Of a DNA stretch of 36,952 nucleotides, positions 1,309 to 30,603 are shown in pieces. A program made the position numbers and the translations under genes. The stretch is from Phoronis australis (taxonomy: Eukaryota > Animalia > Phoronida): positions 535,060 through 572,011 of the forward strand of contig NMRA01000173.1 in NCBI GenBank assembly GCA_002633005.1, in the 5' to 3' direction. The notes under the pieces were generated by a model. It was not told the origin of the DNA, made no database searches, and worked only from the letters and a program-made list of their open reading frames with translations. Each line of letters starts with the position of its first letter. The first letter of the stretch is position 1.

Positions 1309-2811
1309 CTAAATATCCACTCTAGACATTGAATCGATTCCCTCGACATTTAAAGTTTGACATGGAGTGTTGCTGAGATTCTTGCGCGTCCTGCTAACTT
1401 CCGGCTCATTCATGGCACTTCCGTTACGAGAAAAACTCGTTTGCAAAGTAGATGAGGACATGTTTTGCTGATCAATCCTTTTAGCAAGTATATGAGCCAG
1501 CCGGGCTCGGTCCTGTGGGCTAATTTCGACCGAATCTACACTTCTTCTGCACGGTCGCATTTGCACATTGGTATCAGAAGATGTGCTTCCTCGTCGAAAT
1601 AAAATCTTGAATTCTCTCCTAATTGCTGTATTTCTAAATACATACACCATGGGATTAATAGCAGAGGCGCTCAATGCGACCCAATACACTAGACACTGGA
1701 CAACAGCTGGTATGCGCGAATGAGTTCCCAATATGGATTCAATTAAAATAACCACAAAATATGGCGACCAGCACAACAGGAATGTGGCGATGACTACAAG
1801 GCCAGTCTTTGCCGCTTTCCAATCGTCCTTGTGGAATATCAAGGCCAAAGATCGGCCAACTAAACTGCTTCTCCGACGACCGTTAATTAACGAATCTTGG
1901 CGTCTTAGCACATTAGAGCTCGAACTGTTTCTGCGAGTAAAAATCAACGAACTTGTACTTCCTTTGCGGGAGATGGTTCTCTGTTCGTCCACAATTCCAT
2001 CAGAACTGTTTGAATCAGGTTGTACACTATTTCTCCGCGCTCGCGCAGTTATCTTTTGAGTGGCTCTATAAAGGACGATGTATATCCATAACATGGTCCC
2101 AAAAGGCAATAAAAAGCAGACAATAGTAAGAAATATAGTGTATGACATGTGAGCCGATTCTGGATTGCGCCATTTCACGGTGCAAGAACCCTGTGCAGGT
2201 TGATATGCAATATAATTCCAGCCGAAAATTGGCGGCAGGGAATACAACACGGACAATGTCCACACACCGGCAATCATGTACGTCGATCTGTCTGTGGTAA
2301 AACGTGCATTGTAGTGAAACGGGGATACAATAGCTGCGTATCTGTCACAGGCAATCAAAAGTAATGTCAATATACACGCTGAAATTAACAGCGTCGTGAG
2401 CATTCCCGTAATTTGGCACCATCCGTCACCGAACTGCCAACTGCTGGTAACCATTGTAACGATGCTAAACGGCATTACGAAGACAGTTATTAAAAAGCAG
2501 CTGACTGACAAGTTCATTACAAAGCGGTTCGATATTGTCATGAGTTGCGCTCGGCGTTTGTAGAAAACAACGAACACAAATATATTTCCGATTAAACTAG
2601 CAATAAATATCAGTGAGATAAATATGACTAGAAAAACAAAAGCTGAGACTGGTATATTCTCCAAGCTATCGTTGTACCCTTCGAGTTCGCTATCTTTTGA
2701 ACTCCCGGTGACATTTGAAACGCTATTTCCAGAGTCAGGGATCACAGTTGTTTCAACCAAAGTGAAGTTAAACGGAGACATTGTTGACTGTTGAACATCT
2801 GTTGGGGCCAT
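1309..2811 (-). CDS. GPR161: GPR161-like rhodopsin-class orphan GPCR, intronless CDS, 500 aa
   Basis: Seven hydrophobic segments with class A motifs (GN in TM1, DRY, CWSPY, NPMVY). LMTISNRFVMNL, WQFGDGWC and LPPIFGW resemble recalled GPR161 segments LLTLSNKFVFSL, WIFGVVWC and LPPLFGW. GPR161 versus GPR101-type orthology needs a phylogeny. Confidence 0.8.
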   Translation of the reverse strand: MAPTDVQQSTMSPFNFTLVETTVIPDSGNSVSNVTGSSKDSELEGYNDSLENIPVSAFVFLVIFISLIFIASLIGNIFVFVVFYKRRAQLMTISNRFVMNLSVSCFLITVFVMPFSIVTMVTSSWQFGDGWCQITGMLTTLLISACILTLLLIACDRYAAIVSPFHYNARFTTDRSTYMIAGVWTLSVLYSLPPIFGWNYIAYQPAQGSCTVKWRNPESAHMSYTIFLTIVCFLLPFGTMLWIYIVLYRATQKITARARRNSVQPDSNSSDGIVDEQRTISRKGSTSSLIFTRRNSSSSNVLRRQDSLINGRRRSSLVGRSLALIFHKDDWKAAKTGLVVIATFLLCWSPYFVVILIESILGTHSRIPAVVQCLVYWVALSASAINPMVYVFRNTAIRREFKILFRRGSTSSDTNVQMRPCRRSVDSVEISPQDRARLAHILAKRIDQQNMSSSTLQTSFSRNGSAMNEPEVSRTRKNLSNTPCQTLNVEGIDSMSRVDI

Positions 2812-12250: not shown

Positions 12251-13419
12251 TTAACCCTTTACGAAATAGATTAGCGAGCTAATGAGCCAAGCCTGCACGC
12301 GCTAACGTGTTTTAACCCCTGCCCGTTCATCTGGAAGGCTTGAATTCCATATAAAACCTGCACACGTTTCAGTGAACAACTGACAGGCTTGGAATTTCAC
12401 ATGGTAATCATACCGTGTCAGAAAATGTCACTTTGGTCAAGAATGGCATAGTTATGTTTTCTGGTGTGTCTCGCGACTTATTCTAAAGCTACATTTCGCC
12501 ATGTTAGCTGGTTAAAAACGAAACTCCAATCAGGTCTTATACTGTCACAAAATCAGTCTAACAATATTAATTACCCCACGATACAATGTCCATTACGAAA
12601 AAGACCATCGGGACCATTAACGACTCAAGAAAACGTTTGGAGGTAATTGACCAACTGTACCCTAAAATTGCAAATTCAGAAAATGGTGCATATACGCAAT
12701 TTAATATAACTCAGTTGCCAGCTTTGATTCAGAGGCGAAATGCAAAAAAAAAATCCCCGTCCACAGCTTCGGGCAGTTGAGCGCACATCACGACGCAGCC
12801 AATGTTGGACATTAATTGTGATGTTTGAGCACATCAATCATTCAATGTTTGGTCGCCCTCACTGTCCTAAAATATTCAAACTGTTTTTCAGTAAGCCAAT
12901 AACCCGGCAAAGGCGGAATCTGCAGCATCGCAGATCCGCTAACTGCTTAACGTCAAATGGATAGGACAAGTCCTAATTCTCCTCTAAAAAAATCGCTTTC
13001 ACAAACACCAAAGTGCAACCAACCTATAGGGCCGGTATCTACCATGCAACTGCGACATTTCTTAATAGACACATCCGTAGTGGTCTCGTCTCGCGTCCAG
13101 CCAGTTGATGCGAGACGTCTGCTGAAGTTCATACAGTCTCGTTCCCAAGCCTCAAGATGTCTTTGATCGGTTAACCAGATAGACTACAGCTAACGAGTAT
13201 CTATGGTTTAACCGATCATAGCCATCTTGAGGCTTGGGGACGACTCAGAGGCTGAATTCATCTCCCTGGTTCACTGCGTGTCCGCTAGGGAGAAGGGGAC
13301 TCTCCTAGCGGACACGCAGGGAACCAGGGAGGGAGTTCACATGCCAGCTTCGCCATCTTTCGACCTGAAAAAACATCACCACAATTATTGTTCGAAATGC
13401 GTTATCTCCCTGAACAACA

Positions 13420-13608
13420 ATGGTTGAATTCTCCAAAAAGAGCCTGTGTTTTGTTCTGGGGGTTGTCTTCGCAGTTGGCGTCGTTACAGGCTACAAGTTG
13501 AAATCGGCAAGAATCCAGTGGCTGAAGAGGCGTAGAGACAAGCTAGCGGATAAATTAGTCGCTGCTCAAAATCACATCAACGCGTCGCAGACAGGAGAGG
13601 CATTCTGA
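13420..13608 (+). CDS. MTLN: Mitoregulin-like (MTLN/MOXI/MPM) single-pass microprotein, 62 aa
   Basis: Ungapped by-eye alignment to recalled human MTLN (MADVSERTLQLSVLVAFASGVLLGWQANRLRRRYLDWRKRRLQDKLAATQKKLDLA) gives about 18/56 identities. Shared features: FAxGVxxG transmembrane motif, basic patch, LxDKLxAxQ. Good start context acaATGG. Confidence 0.8.
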   Translation: MVEFSKKSLCFVLGVVFAVGVVTGYKLKSARIQWLKRRRDKLADKLVAAQNHINASQTGEAF

Positions 13609-14143
13609 ATTGAGGTGTGGTGCAGCCAGGGTAAAGTTCAACAGTACAACACTCTCTGCCTCGCGGCGAGAAAAGTGTAGCCAAAAATCACCCATTGAAT
13701 ATACACTGCGAGATCTTGCTTTTTAGCGAGTCATTCCAGAGTTTCTCGACACATATACTCTCTGTCACAGCGCCATATCTCTCACTAGCATTGTAGTTTT
13801 GTACGTCCATCGATAAGGCTGTCAGTGTCACAGTGGCCTAGCCCTAGGCCGACTTTTCCGCGACGGCCGAGATTGGGTCTAGACAGTGACCACCGCCAGT
13901 AGGATGGTGGAGTTCTTATAGGCGCTTCATACGCCATAAGCTTTTCGGGGAATTATGCCACGCACTGACTAATACATCAAAGTCACATTGTTATTAATAC
14001 CTGCCCTTTGGCTTTGCACACAGAGGGACACCTCAGGAGGCCCTCGATGTATTTAATTCCTTCCAACTCAAATAAATGCTCCCGTTATCAAACTTTTTCT
14101 TCGAGTAGTCCCTCGTTCAGTTCCCTAAATCAGTAACTCACCA

Positions 14144-14737
14144 TTTTTATGCTCCCACATATTTATATGCGCATTATGCCGTCATCTCTGTCCATCTGGC
14201 GTCTGCTGCTCTATCTCCAAAACACCATGAGGTAGTATGTTCATGAAATTTTGCGCATGTGTTCCTTCCATGGATGGGACGGCATGAGCGAACTTTTGGA
14301 CGGATCCGACTAATGGTCTACCCCCTAGTGGCAATTTTAGTTTTTACGTTTACCTCTGTATCTTCAAAAGTCCTCAACGGATTTTCATAAAATTTGGTAT
14401 ATAGGCACCTATTAGTGAGATGACGCTATCCTCCTTCAGATGGATTCAACCTAGTTTGCGCCACCTAGTGGCCATTTTTACTGTTTTCGAGTCTGTTTTT
14501 TGGCGTCCACTTGTCTATCAACCAGACTGCATTCAGGATAATTGCGAAAATTGGCATGTATGTTTTTACTATGAAGTGGACGGCTGACGACAACTGTGGT
14601 ACCTCCTAGTGGGAGTTTTTTTTTCGCTCTCATGGCTGTATCTCCTAAACCATTTGCAGGATCTCTACTTAATGTATCAAGTGTATTTATATGATGTTGA
14701 CAACGGACGACGACAACGACTTTCGGACGGATCAACA
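14144..14737 (+). mobile_element. 3'-truncated second copy of the HINE-like element
   Basis: Colinear with roughly 16784-17415 (atgctcccacatattta, gctgctctatctccaaaac, gacggatccgacta, attagtgagatgacgctatcctcc). Confidence 0.75.
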
Positions 14738-15167
14738 TAGGATCCCAGTCATTAAGTCTCCAGTCATATAAATGTTCACCCAATTCAATATTATGATATA
14801 AATGATCACCCTATTCAATACTAAATTCAATGGGTGTGAGTTAGAAAACTTGCTGAATGCTGAAGGTATCTCCTGACATGTGAAATTTATGGATAAATTC
14901 ATGTTCGTGTTTAACTTTTGGAACACTGAAGACTAAAAAGTGTGTACAACGGTAGAAGTTCTGACAAGACCATACCAGAAGGATGACATCCTCTGGTTCG
15001 TTTCTACAAAAGTTGAACATTTAGGAATCTTTGACTTTATGACTATGACTCTATGACTCCTTGAAACCATTTCAATTTTGTATCAAAGCTAATGAGCTTT
15101 CTTCCACTGTTTCACTGGTAGAATGGGAATTAAACACCAATTGTCACTGTGTGTCTCAGGCGTGTTT

Positions 15168-15291
15168 TAACTACATCATTATCCTGTCTGCACCAGCGTG
15201 CTTGACCTTCCAAAGTATTAACTACATTCTTATCCTTTCTGCACCAGCGTGTTTGACCTTCCAAAGTATTAACTACATTATTATCCTTTCT
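15168..15291. repeat. 51-bp tandem repeat, ~2.4 copies
   Basis: Unit taactacatcattatcctgtctgcaccagcgtgcttgaccttccaaagtat. Confidence 0.85.
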
Positions 15292-16098
15292 AACCTGGTG
15301 ACAATAATTCTGAAATTCAACTAACTGTAAAGTTACCTTGGCAACTGAAGATAATCGGGGTGACAAGCATTCGTGACCTGTCAGTTCTCAAACCATGAAA
15401 TCATTTCTAATGTCAGTAAAAAACAAGGTGAGACGTTTCATGACACTAATTAGGGGCTTAAATCAAAAGTTGACCTTTGACTTGAAGATGTACATGGACT
15501 TATTGCTCATTAAAAATACTCTCTGCTTCATTTTAGTAATCTTCATAAAATGGATTTTAACGCAAATAATTCCATCCAAACTTGATCTCTAATCATGCTT
15601 ATTCAACACTATTTTCGAATTTAACTGAATTTAATATGAAACTTATAATTTAATTTTCATTTTTGGTGGTGCTCCACCACTTTAAATGCTCGCTGTAGTG
15701 AGTGACAGGTGACATGCATTATGGGTACTCCCTCAACATTCGCCATGTATTGAGGTTTCCGCGGAAACCCGTCCATTTAAAAATAGCAGTGTAATAAAGC
15801 AAACACAACAAGGCTGAAAGTTGCAAAATTGACTGGTGAAACTCGTGCTATGCTCGAAATAGGTGAATATAAAAGAAAGACAATCTTTATAGCGAAACTG
15901 TGTGCTCTTAGTTGGTGGCCCGCAGATTATGAATAAACAATTGCAGTAGAACAGACAACCCACACAGCAGTCCACCAAATCAGAACACTAGTCATAAGTC
16001 AGAGCTGGTTGTTGACCTACCAACCGCCACAAGAGACAGCAGGGCACACAAAATATAACCAATTTATTTCAACAAAAAAGCTGATTTATCTAAGAAAC

Positions 16099-16131
16099 CT
16101 TAACTTTCTGTTTTATTATTGTATTTTTCAG
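16099..16131 (+). other. 3' splice site upstream of the cupin ATG
   Basis: Branch-like cttaac, T-rich tract, then tttttcag. Confidence 0.7.
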
Positions 16132-16160
16132 TTGACATCCTGACAAGGTGATTTTACAAG

Positions 16161-16481
16161 ATGCCCATTGGCAAAGTAAATATTGAGAAGTGGAACCCTA
16201 GTGTGGATGGAAAACTCGACGTGGAGAATATGAAAAAGAAACTTACAAATCAAGGGTACCACAGTACAGTGTATCACTTCCCTCCAGGAACTGACTTTCC
16301 TGATCACACGCACTCGTACACGAAGAAAGACGCCATTGTGGCTGGAGAATTTAGAATGGAGATGTTGGGAGAAGTAGTTGTACTACAGCCTGGAGACATC
16401 ATCGTTGTCCCTGCTCAAGTAGTTCATAACGCTTCGGTTATTGGCAATAAAACTGTGGTCTTCGTTGATGGTTCAAAGTGA
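16161..16481 (+). CDS. Small single-domain cupin (Cupin_2/RmlC-like), 106 aa
   Basis: Cupin motif 1 FPPGTDFPDHTH and motif 2 LQPGDIIVVPAQVVHNA. Start context aagATG, preceded by a strong splice acceptor ending at 16131. Confidence 0.85.
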   Translation: MPIGKVNIEKWNPSVDGKLDVENMKKKLTNQGYHSTVYHFPPGTDFPDHTHSYTKKDAIVAGEFRMEMLGEVVVLQPGDIIVVPAQVVHNASVIGNKTVVFVDGSK

Positions 16482-16696: not shown

Positions 16697-16783
16697 TGAA
16701 ACCCACTCTGCAAAGGCTGAGTTTAAAATCATCTGACTTTCAGATTTATCTCATTGGCTGTGCAGATCTTGTATCTCGTATGA

Positions 16784-18057
16784 TTTTAATGCGCCCACAT
16801 ATTTACATGTGGACGCATTATGCCATCATCTCCGTCCGTCCGTCCGGGCGGCGTCCGTCCGGCGTCCGCTGCTCTATCTCCAAAACTCTTTGACATGCGT
16901 TCATGAAATTTGATGCATATGTTTCATTCATGAATGGGACGGCATGAGGAAACTTTCAGACGGATCCGACTACTGGTGTGCCCCTAGTGGCAATTTTATT
17001 TTTTTACGTTTACCTTTGTTTCTTCAAAAGTCCTTAATGGATTTTCGTGAAATGTAATATGTAGGCATCTATTAGTGAGATGACGCTATCCTCCCGTTTT
17101 CGGTTAGATTCGACGTAGTTTGCACCACCTAGTGGCCATTTTTACTGTTTTCGAGTCTGTTTTTTTCCGTCCACCCCTCTATCAACCAAACTGCTCAAAA
17201 GATGTGAAAATTGGCATGTGTGTGCTTACTATAAAGAGGACTGTTGACGATGATTTTCCAACGATTTCGACTACTGTGGCGCCTCCTAGTGGCAGTTATG
17301 TTTTTGTTGCGCCTATGGCTGTGTCTCCTAAACCGTTCGCAGGATCTTTACTTAATTTAGCAAGTGTATTTATATGATGTTGACTACGGATGATTACGAC
17401 TTTCGGACAGATCCGACTACTGCTGTGCCCCCTAGTGGCAATTTTAATTTTTTACGTTTGACTCAATATCTTCAAAGGTCCTCAACAGATTTTCATAAAG
17501 TTTTAAATAAAGGCATCTATTGGTGTGATGACGCTATCTTCCTGTTTTTGGATGGAATCGAGGTATTTTGCACCTCCTAGTGGCCATTTTTGCTGTTTTC
17601 AAATCTTGTTTTTGGCGTCCACCTGTGTATCAACCAAATCATTTGAAAATTGGCATATATGTTTTCAGTGTGAAGACGACCTTTGATGATGGTGACTGAC
17701 TACTGTGGCGCCTCCTTGTGGTTGTTTTGTTTTGCGCCCATAGGTGTATCTCCTAAACCCACTGCAGGATCTTTACTAAATTTATTACCAGTAAGTGTAT
17801 TTATATGAAGATAACAACAGACGACGACTTTCAGGCAGATCCAACGGACACTGTGCCCACTAGTGGCAATTTCATTTTATTCTGTTTTTCTTAGTTTCTC
17901 TGAAGTTCCTTGACAGACTTTTATGAAATATGGCATGTTCCTGTTTTTGGATGGATTGTATGTTTTTACGCCATCTAGTGGCCATTTTTATGATACAAAT
18001 AAATAACCCTAAAAGCACACCATTTGGGCGCATTTCAACGCTCCGCGTTGCTCTTGT
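16784..18057 (+). mobile_element. Helentron-associated non-autonomous element (HINE/DINE-1-like) with internal tandem array
   Basis: T-run start, subTIR aatgcgcccacat with a nearby inverted copy, (CGTC)n microsatellite, ~147-bp subunits marked by ctagtggc, 3' subTIR atttgggcgcatt and terminal hairpin caacgc-tcc-gcgttg. Confidence 0.75.
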
Positions 18058-22965: not shown

Positions 22966-23591
22966 CAAATTGGTGAATTAAAAAATAATAGTTTGATTAA
23001 AATTTACATTACACTAAACATGTGAGTTGCTTTAGAGCAGTGCAAAAATTTTTTCAACTTGATCTTTATCATTTGAGTGAATTTCCAAGTTTCCAAAGAT
23101 ATTCCAAGTTCGCCCATATGCGATTTTGAGATTAAGCAATTTAACAACCTTGAATACATCTTCACCCATATATGTCAAAGACGTCTCTGATCGTATGCAG
23201 GCCTCAAATGGATAAACCGATTAGCGCCATCTTGAGGCTTGGGTACGAGGCTGTGACCGTATGCATCACAGGCGACACCTGTTATCTGGTAGAAAACATT
23301 CTCAAGGGATGATACGTTTTCTTAATTGAAATCAACGGTAACTAAATTAAGCAATACACCAAACTAGAACTTAAATGTGCATGTGGTAAGTTTTTATTTC
23401 TACAAAAATTCCCAGTGAACTGCATAAATTGAATTCATTGCACCGTAAACTGTGTAAGGAAGACCTGTCAACCCTACAACAATGGGATGATCTCAAAGTC
23501 GTGGCTTCAGCACACCTTCCACCGGCTTGAGGAGGTAGCATTAGGTTTTCAGTTACGGGGCTTTGGTATTTATCACTGTTATTTTGCAAAT

Positions 23592-23948
23592 ATGAACGCT
23601 CTGATGGGCATCAGACAACTTTTTTATTTAGCGTATATACTCTTCTTCACGTTTGATTCGATTCATTGTTTGCAAGTTATCTGGGCAGTGAATGCTGGCG
23701 GGAATGCACACACCGACATCCACGGAATCAAATACCAAAAAGACAAATTATCATCTGGCTTTCCTTCTGACTACGGCACAAGTCTAATCATCCAAAGAGT
23801 TGTACCTCAAGACCAAATCCTGTATCAGACAGAGAGATACCACACCGATAACTTCGCCTACAACATACCAATCAAAGCAAATGACGAAGGGGATTATGTC
23901 CTTGTGTTGAAATTCTGTGAGGTCTGGTTCAACGCACCAAATCAAAAG
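23592..23948 (+). CDS. MLEC: Malectin coding exon 1 (signal peptide and N-terminal lectin domain)
   Basis: MNALMG...[21 protein letters not shown] and [12 protein letters not shown] match malectin. Donor AAG|GTAATC at 23948/9, phase 0. ATG 23592 is chosen because a signal-like peptide follows. Confidence 0.93.
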
Positions 23949-25000
23949 GTAATCGCTGATTAATTGATAATAACCTGTTAACTGTGTATCAATCATTGCC
24001 TGTTAGTTAGTGCATCATACCTTTGAACAAGTCAATACAATGTGCAGTTTACTAGACTTGAAATCCTCCTGCAGTTGAACCTAGTATCTGCAGCATGTGA
24101 ATCAAGCGTCCAAACTGGTCAGTCAGGAAGCAGTTGACTTGTCTATTCGCTAACGATTTATGCCTCGTGCCTAAGGGTAATGTGTCACAGTTTTCCTTCC
24201 GCTTCCATAGAACTGGATTGCCTTTGGACTACAGATCCCGGTTACACTCTTAGTCTGTGTCCTGGAATTTGCCCTCAGCGATACTAGATCTTTCTGTGTT
24301 CTGGATCCACCACAACCATCAGGCTGGCACGGTCTCCATCCACTACTTGGAAGCTTCGTATACATCGCAAAATTTTGTGGGCGTTACTGTTGTTGGACGC
24401 CAATGTTGAAAATTCACCAGCACTGAGATTTGAACCTAGTATCTACAAATGGCAGTAATAGTACGATATAACTGTCCCGCATTTTGAGAAGTGTTAAAAA
24501 TTAGCTATTTACACTGAATATTGCTGGCCGTCATTTAGTTAATGTAATTGGTTCTCAAGTCAAGGCCAGTTAGGCCGACTGGGCAGCTGCGCATCCTAAT
24601 CAAACCTTTCAGATTTTTTTGCAAATTACACTTCTTCCTGGCTAAACTGTCGAAGTTGCGTCACTGTATGCACCTTTGGAGTTTGTTGGAGTTTTTAAAA
24701 TTTTAAAACTTTCCTACTTGAACAAAACAATCTACATCTTTTTTTAAAAAGTTTGTATATTGGTAATGGACCATATTTACAAATGGATTGCTATCATAGT
24801 GTTCTTTCAGACAAATCTCTGGTGTGCAATACCATATGTTTCATCTTGCAAAGCCAGCTTAGTGCTCGTCTCCTGTGTGCCAGGGTAAGGTGACCTTTCT
24901 GGGCCTTGCTGTCAGTGATGTATATGCTGTGAATTTGTGAAAGCTGGGGAATATTAATTTATAAAATTGCAAGTTAACTCCACCTTCACAACATTTTCAG

Positions 25001-29582: not shown

Positions 29583-30378
29583 CTTCATGTATAACCAATA
29601 TACACCTTCATGTATAACCAATACACATGTTCATGTATAACCAATACACATCTTCATGTATAACCAATATACACCTTCATGTATAACCAATATACACCTT
29701 CATGTATAACCAATATACATCTTCATGTATAACCAATATACATGTTCATGTATAACCAATATACATCTTCATGTATAACCAATATACATCTTCATGTATA
29801 ACCAATATACATCTTCATGCATAACCAATATACATGTTCATGCATAACCAATATACATGTTCATGCATAACCAATATACATCTTCATGCATAACCAATAT
29901 ACATCTTCATGCATAACCAATATACATCTTCATGTATAACCAATATACATCTTCATGTATAACCAATATACATCTTCATGTATAACCAATATACATCTTC
30001 ATGTATAACCAATATACATCTTCATGCATAACCAATATACATGTTCACGCATAACCAATATACATGTTCACGTATAACCAATATACATGTTCACGTATAA
30101 CCAATATACATGTTCACGTATAACCAATATACATGTTCACGTATAACCAATATACATGTTCACGTATAACCAATATACATCTTCATGTATAACCAATATA
30201 CATGTTCATGTATAACCAATGTACATGTTCATGTATAACCAATATACATCTTCATGTATAACCAATGTACATCTTCATGTATAACCAATGTACATGTTCA
30301 TGTATAACCAATGTACATGTTCATGTATAACCAATGTACATCTTCATGTATAACCAATATGACCAATATACATCTTCA
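29583..30378. repeat. 23-bp minisatellite, ~34 copies, abutting malectin exon 4
   Basis: Unit cttcatgtataaccaatatacat with variants. Confidence 0.97.
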
Positions 30379-30379
30379 G

Positions 30380-30603
30380 AAGTACCACAGTTACCACCAC
30401 TGCCGAATGCAAACAAACCTGATGAAGAAGAAGAGGATGATGAAGCTGAAGTGAACGAGAAGAAGCCGAGTAAGCCACGTCGACCATCTGGTCCTAAAGT
30501 ACAAGATCCTTACGCGACAGAAGACAGCAGTAGTATGCTATTACCTGTTCTGGCGGCCATTGCTGCATTCCTGCCACTACTGTTCTGCCTATGCAAGTTA
30601 TAA
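30380..30603 (+). CDS. MLEC: Malectin exon 4 (acidic linker and C-terminal TM anchor); the spliced CDS totals 819 nt, 272 aa
   Basis: Acceptor cttcag at 30379 completes the phase-1 codon GAA. EVPQLPP...EEEEDDE...SGPKVQDPY...LLPVLAAIAAFLPLLFCLCKL matches the malectin C-terminus (FCLCRL). Confidence 0.92.

What the first reader, a model, noticed from the sequence alone, without database searches (positions are those of the whole stretch)
13420..13608. Mitoregulin-like microprotein in an apparent invertebrate genome
Seen: a 62-codon ORF with good start context, one TM helix and a basic amphipathic tail. Known: mitoregulin (LINC00116 product) is a 56-aa mitochondrial microprotein linked to fatty-acid oxidation and respiration, mostly described as vertebrate-conserved. 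Inference: the ungapped match (~18/56 identities to the recalled human sequence; FAxGVxxG, RxxxLxxR, LxDKLxAxQ) suggests an older metazoan family that length cut-offs would miss.
Basis: partly seen in the sequence, partly recalled or inferred. Interest (0 to 1): 0.8.

Follow-up and report, generated by a model that had tools for sequence, protein, structure and literature searches.

The report
Invertebrate mitoregulin shares mRNA with cupin

Summary
Confirmed and extended. The 62-codon ORF (13420-13608, +) matches Pfam MTLN over residues 1-54 at 44.9 bits (cut-off 27); 0 of 5000 architecture-preserving shuffles approach its score on a profile built without it. Stranded RNA reads from 3 of 3 raw-read runs (one study) cover it on the + strand. 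New: reads leave the exon 6 or 22 nt after the stop and continue at 16132, the exon holding an intact, intronless 106-aa cupin ORF. So the mRNA is bicistronic, with no AUG between the two starts and a stop position that should escape NMD. The family is widespread outside vertebrates: 78 relatives, named ones from a scorpion and a flatworm; all 78 already carry the Pfam label, so databases hold it implicitly, although a 2025 review calls it generally absent from invertebrates. No cupin was found beside 8 other loci, so the pairing looks lineage-specific, like STREMI-SLC35A4. Translation, mitochondrial location and function are inferred, not shown. New variant of a known kind; interest 0.55.

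The parts
13420..13608 (+). Mitoregulin-family ORF, 62 aa: hydrophobic segment 8-24 with G20-x3-G24, basic amphipathic helix 26-54
   Evidence: RNA depth 16-73 on one strand over 13448-13602
13293..13419 (+). Leader region with low, rising read depth; the 5' end is not mapped
   Evidence: table 2 (depth 0-7 in these bins, mostly X2 and X3)
13397..13501 (+). Upstream AUG and 34-codon overlapping ORF in another frame (G at -3, C at +4); a second upstream AUG at 13341 ends at 13427
   Evidence: translation untested
13445..13446 (+). Polymorphic 2-nt loss in a short dinucleotide run, seen in reads of two runs
   Evidence: 8 of 19 reads (X2), 4 of 13 (X3), 0 of 23 (X4)
13615..13616 (+). Splice donor 1 (GT), 6 nt after the stop codon
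   Evidence: loose ends behind 13614 in 10, 7 and 8 reads; GT in sequence
13631..13632 (+). Splice donor 2 (GT), 22 nt after the stop codon
   Evidence: loose ends behind 13630 in 3 and 3 reads; GT in sequence
13615..16131 (+). Intron (2517 or 2501 nt) ending in a pyrimidine tract and AG; holds dispersed and tandem repeats
16132..16160 (+). Start of exon 2, 29 nt before the cupin AUG, no AUG
   Evidence: loose-end consensus matches here once in the window, 0 expected by chance; sequence
16161..16481 (+). Intronless 106-aa cupin ORF (Pfam Cupin_2) with H49, H51, H89 kept in 3 bacterial relatives; second cistron
   Evidence: RNA depth 32-48 on the same strand

Best explanation
The ORF is a transcribed member of the mitoregulin family in an invertebrate, its exon is spliced just after the stop codon onto an exon holding an intact cupin ORF, and the resulting mRNA likely makes both proteins. 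Shown: family match, + strand transcription, the splice junctions, the intact cupin frame. Inferred from vertebrate work: the peptide is a single-pass mitochondrial membrane protein, probably in the outer membrane with its N-terminus inside and its basic helix in the cytosol, that binds anionic lipid, self-associates and supports fatty-acid metabolism and membrane integrity. Inferred from the anatomy: most ribosomes start at the strong mitoregulin AUG; the cupin is made at a lower rate by ribosomes that scan past it or restart after it (or after the overlapping ORF from 13397), the cupin AUG being the next AUG on the mRNA; the stop lies within 55 nt of the junction, so the mRNA should escape nonsense-mediated decay. 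The pairing most likely arose when an intronless cupin gene came under the mitoregulin promoter by read-through, without the two proteins needing to work together.
For: Pfam MTLN 44.9 bits, colinear 1-54; shuffle controls 0 of 5000 and 0 of 5000. Strand: first-mate-plus depth 0 and first-mate-minus depth 16-73 over 13448-13602 in X2, X3, X4, the same direction as over the cupin exon. Junction: loose ends in 13 (X2), 10 (X3) and 37 (X4) listed reads, median loose lengths 39-81 nt, so many run through the 29-nt spacer into the cupin frame; their consensus equals 16132 onward; GT donors and AG acceptor. Depth just beyond the donors is 0 in X2, 2-3 in X3 and 0 after 13665 in X4, so nearly all transcripts seen are spliced. 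Depth on the two exons is alike (about 34/24/50-73 against 27-34 and 32-48). No AUG in 237 nt between the two starts. Cupin frame is conserved (Pfam E 5.5e-12; 31-42% to 3 bacterial proteins), so it is made from some mRNA. Precedent: STREMI-SLC35A4 and the enrichment of intronless second ORFs (PMC13303939, passages); 55-nt rule (PMC3951408, passages).
Against: No ribosome or peptide data. The raw reads are from one study and about a fifth of each run was read. The mitoregulin AUG is in strong context and 62 codons is long for re-initiation, which would limit cupin output. The lack of AUGs is rare under base shuffles (P 0.006) but not under synonymous recoding of the ORF (P 0.115). An alternative cupin first exon was not excluded (556 joints not shown). 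A frame-breaking 2-nt loss is present in reads of 2 of 3 runs, which is odd for an essential peptide. The human protein was not compared directly and the make-up of the Pfam seed was not seen.
Confidence: 0.7

Rival explanations
1. The mitoregulin gene is real, but the cupin exon only serves as its 3' untranslated end; the cupin protein comes from a separate transcript with its own promoter or first exon.
For: Strong mitoregulin start context; in human the ORF also lies in the first exon of a short transcript (PMC6091870, passage); low + strand signal across the intron in X2 and X3; AUG avoidance not significant under the codon-aware null.
Against: Similar depth on both exons leaves little room for a second major transcript; CpG observed/expected is 0.75-1.0 around the mitoregulin exon and 0.27-0.62 in the 1.5 kb before the cupin frame (300-nt windows, weak); the cupin AUG has A at -3 and is the next AUG.
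Confidence: 0.2
2. The two proteins are an operon-like pair that work together, for example the cupin being a metal enzyme held at the mitochondrial surface by the peptide's cytosolic helix.
For: Shared mRNA; PMC9681215 (passage) cites a trend for bicistronic smORF pairs to interact.
Against: No cupin match (best E 0.84) in 8 of 8 other loci, of which 4 hold 1.1-4 kb of genomic DNA downstream; the cupin family occurs in bacteria (3 of 251 genomes) where the peptide family was not found; STREMI and SLC35A4 are described as not interdependent.
Confidence: 0.07
3. The peptide is not related by descent to vertebrate mitoregulin but is a look-alike made of a membrane helix and a basic tail.
For: Short, compositionally simple protein; ESM Atlas scores only 0.86 and 0.85, 'lead only' by that tool's scale; no named vertebrate sequence was retrieved.
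Against: Block shuffles that keep the layout reach at most 20.7 bits against 66.3; the only Pfam family above its cut-off is MTLN; fixed residue pattern G20, G24, R31, L35, R39, L42, K45, Q50 at 93-100% in 75 relatives.
Confidence: 0.03

Closest known systems
Vertebrate mitoregulin (MTLN / MOXI / MPM / LEMP, product of LINC00116; Pfam PF22002)
   Same: Colinear match over 54 of 56 model positions; one N-terminal membrane helix and a polybasic tail; no cleavable leader; ORF wholly inside the first exon (human: PMC6091870 passage).
   Different: Invertebrate host; 62 aa instead of 56; by register, human Trp25 (needed for self-association, PMC11732159 passage) is Tyr25 here and Trp37 is Arg37; the second exon encodes another protein, which the papers read do not report for the vertebrate gene.
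STREMI-SLC35A4 and the 'gene symbiosis' class of bicistronic mRNAs (PMC13303939)
   Same: Mitochondrial-type single-pass microprotein in front, an unrelated intronless ORF behind, the two families older than their linkage.
   Different: Different microprotein family and partner; invertebrate; stress-dependent control of the second ORF is untested here; retroposition of the cupin was not tested.
Drosophila sloth1-sloth2 (SMIM4 and BRAWNIN orthologues; PMC9681215)
   Same: Invertebrate bicistronic mRNA with a mitochondrial smORF first, second ORF reached by leaky scanning.
   Different: There both peptides are paralogues in one complex, 5 nt apart, and the first start context is weak; here the partners are unrelated, an intron separates them, and the first context is strong.
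Small stand-alone Cupin_2 proteins (PF07883) of marine invertebrates and bacteria
   Same: HxH plus later H pattern, about 105 aa; nearest Atlas cluster 60% eukaryotic, commonest Mollusca.
   Different: Substrate unknown; encoded as the second cistron.

Membership tests
Mitoregulin (PF22002) | Score above the Pfam gathering cut-off over most of the model | tested here: met
   44.9 bits against 27; 1-54 of 56
Mitoregulin (PF22002) | Single N-terminal membrane helix followed by a polybasic helix | tested here: met
   hydropathy, charge and moment; one helix 6-59; prediction only
Mitoregulin (PF22002) | Match is residue-specific, not compositional | tested here: met
   0 of 5000 full and 0 of 5000 block shuffles reach the score
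Mitoregulin (PF22002) | Transcribed, ORF inside the first exon | tested here: met
   no upstream joint among listed loose ends (one row not shown); 5' end not mapped
Mitoregulin (PF22002) | Reciprocal best hit to a vertebrate MTLN sequence | not testable with these tools
   no call returned a named vertebrate member; Pfam seed not visible
Mitoregulin (PF22002) | Trp25 used for self-association in the human protein | tested here: inconclusive
   Tyr at 25; aromatic in about 99% of 75 relatives (Y 88, F 7, W 4); oligomer not tested
Mitoregulin (PF22002) | Translated; mitochondrial membrane location; cardiolipin binding; role in fatty-acid oxidation | not testable with these tools
   needs ribosome profiling, tagging and knockout
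Bicistronic mRNA of the STREMI-SLC35A4 type | Both ORFs on one spliced transcript | tested here: met
   junction reads in 3 of 3 raw-read runs of one study
Bicistronic mRNA of the STREMI-SLC35A4 type | Both ORFs encode conserved proteins that do not overlap | tested here: met
Bicistronic mRNA of the STREMI-SLC35A4 type | First stop within 55 nt of the junction (NMD-immune layout) | tested here: met
   6 or 22 nt (33 nt for the third form); further 3' introns not excluded because repeats mask the reads after 16525
Bicistronic mRNA of the STREMI-SLC35A4 type | Shared form is the main transcript of both genes | tested here: inconclusive
   depths alike; alternative first exon not excluded
Bicistronic mRNA of the STREMI-SLC35A4 type | Both proteins translated from the shared mRNA | not testable with these tools
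   no ribosome data

The most novel reading that the evidence does not exclude
Mitoregulin is an ancient, at least bilaterian microprotein whose short first-exon gene repeatedly acts as a landing pad: in different invertebrate lineages it has become the first cistron of mRNAs with unrelated second genes (a cupin here; ASRGL1 and an RNA ligase in unchecked notes from other genomes) and sets their translation. In this species a common 2-nt loss allele would be rescued by an upstream AUG that gives a 69-aa form with a new N-terminus.
Probability: 0.4. Interest if true: 0.72.

Novelty: new variant of a known kind. Interest (0 to 1): 0.55.

Why it matters
[quoted passage not shown] The bicistronic layout explains why such genes are lost in annotation (they look like a 5' UTR) and offers a natural test of the 'gene symbiosis' model outside vertebrates. 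The family range alone is modest news, since Pfam labels already sit on the invertebrate sequences.

Tried and rejected
Word-based search with the single protein found nothing; the exact protein and the cupin are not in the 15-billion collection. PDB sequence search gave 3 weak unrelated hits and Foldseek 0 matches. No own genome is held, so copy number and synteny with relatives were not tested; a six-frame scan found one copy in the window (1 of 1268 segments). The look-up of sequencing runs listed no holder on record as RNA; the reads were informative only when laid. Viral contigs: 0 of 252 pattern matches confirmed. Prokaryote genomes: 2 of 17 pattern matches passed tblastn on 13- and 24-codon stretches only and were not taken as members. 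Rfam: 0 matches. Complex prediction of cupin with the peptide: no answer, score 0.00, alignments not used; no evidence either way. A non-animal origin was considered because L005 has a family ORF 6 nt before an algal-type triose-phosphate translocator; set aside as a probable chimeric contig (GC3 0.42 against 0.69, Fisher P 7e-5; Arg codons AGR 4 of 6 against 0 of 8; its peptide nests in a 55-row clade, 95/99, with the animal-like loci), though GC3 also differs between neighbours in L001 and L004 (P 0.03, 0.01). AUG avoidance as proof of leaky scanning was dropped after the codon-aware null (P 0.115). The tree (86 rows, 62 columns) is too thin to place the host. Literature: searches 'mitoregulin+invertebrate' (7 papers), 'mitoregulin' (40 of 184 listed), 'MTLN+cupin' (1 unrelated listing), 'mitoregulin-like' (0) and searches showed no paper on invertebrate or bicistronic mitoregulin; subscription journals, figures and supplements were not seen, and alignments there may include invertebrates.

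Full report
Observation. The ORF at 13420-13608 (+) is real and encodes 62 residues, with A at -3 and G at +4 of the start, a hydrophobic stretch at residues 8-24, a tail of net charge +7 over residues 26-46 and a helical moment peaking at residues 31-48. AlphaFold2 on a 20-row alignment gives a single helix (6-59) with mean pLDDT 90.7 and pTM 0.47.

Family. Pfam MTLN (PF22002) matches residues 1-54 on model positions 1-54 of 56 at 44.9 bits, E 1.1e-11, cut-off 27; the two other families listed are below their cut-offs. On a profile built from 14 relatives without the window protein it scores 66.3 bits; the reversed protein scores 3.3, and 0 of 5000 full shuffles (max 10.5) and 0 of 5000 block shuffles that keep the membrane/basic layout (max 20.7) reach it. 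The ESM Atlas lists two MTLN clusters first, at 0.86 and 0.85 with 199 and 184 shared features, the first 'commonest Mollusca' on only 2 members of known phylum; the tool rates scores under 0.9 as leads. I could not see whether the Pfam seed itself holds invertebrates.

Range. phmmer over 1.84 billion representatives gave 19 hits at E up to 0.001; the profile of these gave 78 of 7986 scored candidates, all 78 with PF22002 precomputed. Almost all are unnamed. Two have species names: a scorpion record (Androctonus bicolor, P0137; 43.8 bits) and a flatworm record (Macrostomum lignano, P0231; 31.5 bits). In 75 relatives G20, G24, R31, L35, R39, L42, K45 and Q50 are 93-100% kept and position 25 is aromatic; the set was collected with this protein as seed, so it is biased towards it. 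The host is an invertebrate: its malectin exon is about 60% identical to Xenopus malectin (58 of 97 columns, counted by hand), 70% to a mollusc record and 63% to a beetle record, and the cupin's nearest Atlas cluster is 60% eukaryotic, commonest Mollusca. The phylum was not determined.

Expression. Four runs with the same species label were laid: X1 (contigs, RNA only a guess, another study) gives one 170-nt contig on 13452-13619 with no differences; X2-X4 (raw paired reads, one study, about a fifth of each read) give first-mate-minus depth 16-73 and first-mate-plus depth 0 over 13448-13602. The cupin exon reads in the same direction, which fixes the RNA as + strand.

The new feature. Reads stop fitting just after the stop codon: behind 13614 (10, 7 and 8 reads), 13630 (3 and 3) and 13638 (29 in X4; one loose-end row was not shown). 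Their loose consensus lies once in the window, at 16132, and all 30 letters agree with 16132-16161. Both 13614 and 13630 are followed by GT, and 16132 is preceded by a pyrimidine tract and AG, giving introns of 2517 and 2501 nt. The joint itself was not among the rows shown (556 hidden), so it rests on the loose ends. Exon 2 holds, 29 nt in, an intronless 106-aa Cupin_2 ORF that is 31-42% identical to three bacterial proteins and keeps H49, H51 and H89. The spacer from stop to AUG is 35 or 51 nt. Depth falls to 0-3 beyond the donors (X4 runs on to 13638), and the two exons have similar depth. There is no AUG in the 237 nt between the two starts: rare under base shuffles (P 0.006), not under synonymous recoding (P 0.115). 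The stop lies well inside the 55-nt limit described in PMC3951408 (passages).

Mechanism. Shown: family, transcription, splice, intact second frame. Inferred from vertebrates: outer-membrane, N-in/C-out topology with MTCH2-assisted insertion and partners in fatty-acid metabolism (PMC10469944, passages; inner-membrane location was reported earlier, PMC6091870, passages; the dispute is reviewed in PMC11920140, passages and first part of the text); polybasic tail expected to bind anionic lipid (PMC13019689, passages); self-association that needs Trp25 (PMC11732159, passages), Tyr here by register. Inferred from anatomy: the cupin is made by leaky scanning or re-initiation; the 34-codon overlapping ORF from 13397 could carry some ribosomes past the mitoregulin AUG. 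The closest model is STREMI-SLC35A4, where an unrelated intronless ORF was joined by read-through and the proteins are not interdependent (PMC13303939, passages); sloth1-sloth2 is the invertebrate precedent for leaky scanning (PMC9681215, passages).

Is the pairing general? Eight loci came from 35 pattern matches in metagenome contigs; 7 of 8 pass the Pfam cut-off. None has a cupin match (best E 0.84); only L001, L003, L004 and L006 hold 1.1-4 kb of genomic DNA downstream, and in L001 and L004 the next gene-like frame is on the opposite strand. These loci belong to a different clade of the family, so they say nothing about close relatives. Unchecked notes from this scan report mitoregulin sharing an mRNA with ASRGL1 in an octopus and with an RNA ligase in two other windows; I did not test them and they are leads, not support. 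L005 joins a family ORF to an algal-type translocator with a signal peptide and an ASAFAP-like motif (motif from the abstract start of PMC4329603 in the listing; PMC5635587 passages), but is probably chimeric.

Against my reading. A 2-nt loss at 13445 is in 8 of 19, 4 of 13 and 0 of 23 reads, compatible with heterozygosity in two samples. It cuts the main frame to 37 residues, yet puts the AUG at 13397 in frame with the last 53 residues, giving 69 aa; the two runs with the allele also have more leader coverage (0.17 and 0.21 against 0.02 of ORF depth), which library bias could explain, and an in-frame upstream AUG has a one-in-three chance. It may equally be a tolerated null allele. No translation data exist, and the raw reads come from one study.

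Novelty. [quoted passage not shown] Ten searches (seven or eight of them on this question) showed no paper on invertebrate or bicistronic mitoregulin. Pfam labels and an Atlas cluster already cover invertebrate members, so the family range is implicit in databases. Verdict: a true new member of a known family in a new bicistronic arrangement; new variant of a known kind; interest 0.55.

Noticed in passing
window 13445-13446 and 13397: 2-nt loss in reads of X2 and X3 breaks the main frame but brings the upstream AUG at 13397 into frame with the last 53 residues; null allele or rescued allele, undecided.
   Followed up: partly
window 13507: G to A in 6 of 25 reads of X3, first base of codon 30 (Ala to Thr), a position that is Trp, Leu or Phe in 96% of relatives.
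   Followed up: partly
window 13631-13638: In X4, 29 reads run to 13638 and carry 3 further letters before exon 2: a third junction form, perhaps a short duplication allele at the donor; unexplained.
   Followed up: no
L005 46-240 and 247-1434: Mitoregulin-family ORF 6 nt before an algal-type triose-phosphate translocator; probably a chimeric contig, but if real it would put the family outside animals and again as a first cistron.
   Followed up: partly
window 13139-13243 and 13262-13331: Two long hairpin-like inverted repeats (36 and 28 nt arms) just upstream of the gene; the first has partial copies at 23208-23254, so probably a small mobile element.
   Followed up: partly
window 1309-2811 (-): Intronless 500-aa rhodopsin-family GPCR (Pfam 7tm_1, E 1.4e-54).
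   Followed up: no
window 23487-23963 and 30334-30603 (+): Malectin gene: one exon matches Pfam Malectin; the second stretch looks like its acidic C-terminal anchor exon (recalled resemblance, no family hit).
   Followed up: partly
window 14117-14718 and 16780-18000: Dispersed repeat family with a roughly 140-nt internal period, heavily covered by divergent, mostly one-strand RNA reads from other copies.
   Followed up: no
window 15164-15316: 51-nt tandem repeat, about 2.5 copies, inside the intron.
   Followed up: no
P0137: A scorpion record named only 'cellular protein AbCp-37' is a mitoregulin-family protein (43.8 bits).
   Followed up: yes
L001 1473-3626 and L004 1585-4174: In these intron-poor loci the mitoregulin ORF lies 333 and 625 nt downstream of same-strand CTC1-like and asparaginase-ankyrin genes, so it might be a second cistron there.
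   Followed up: no
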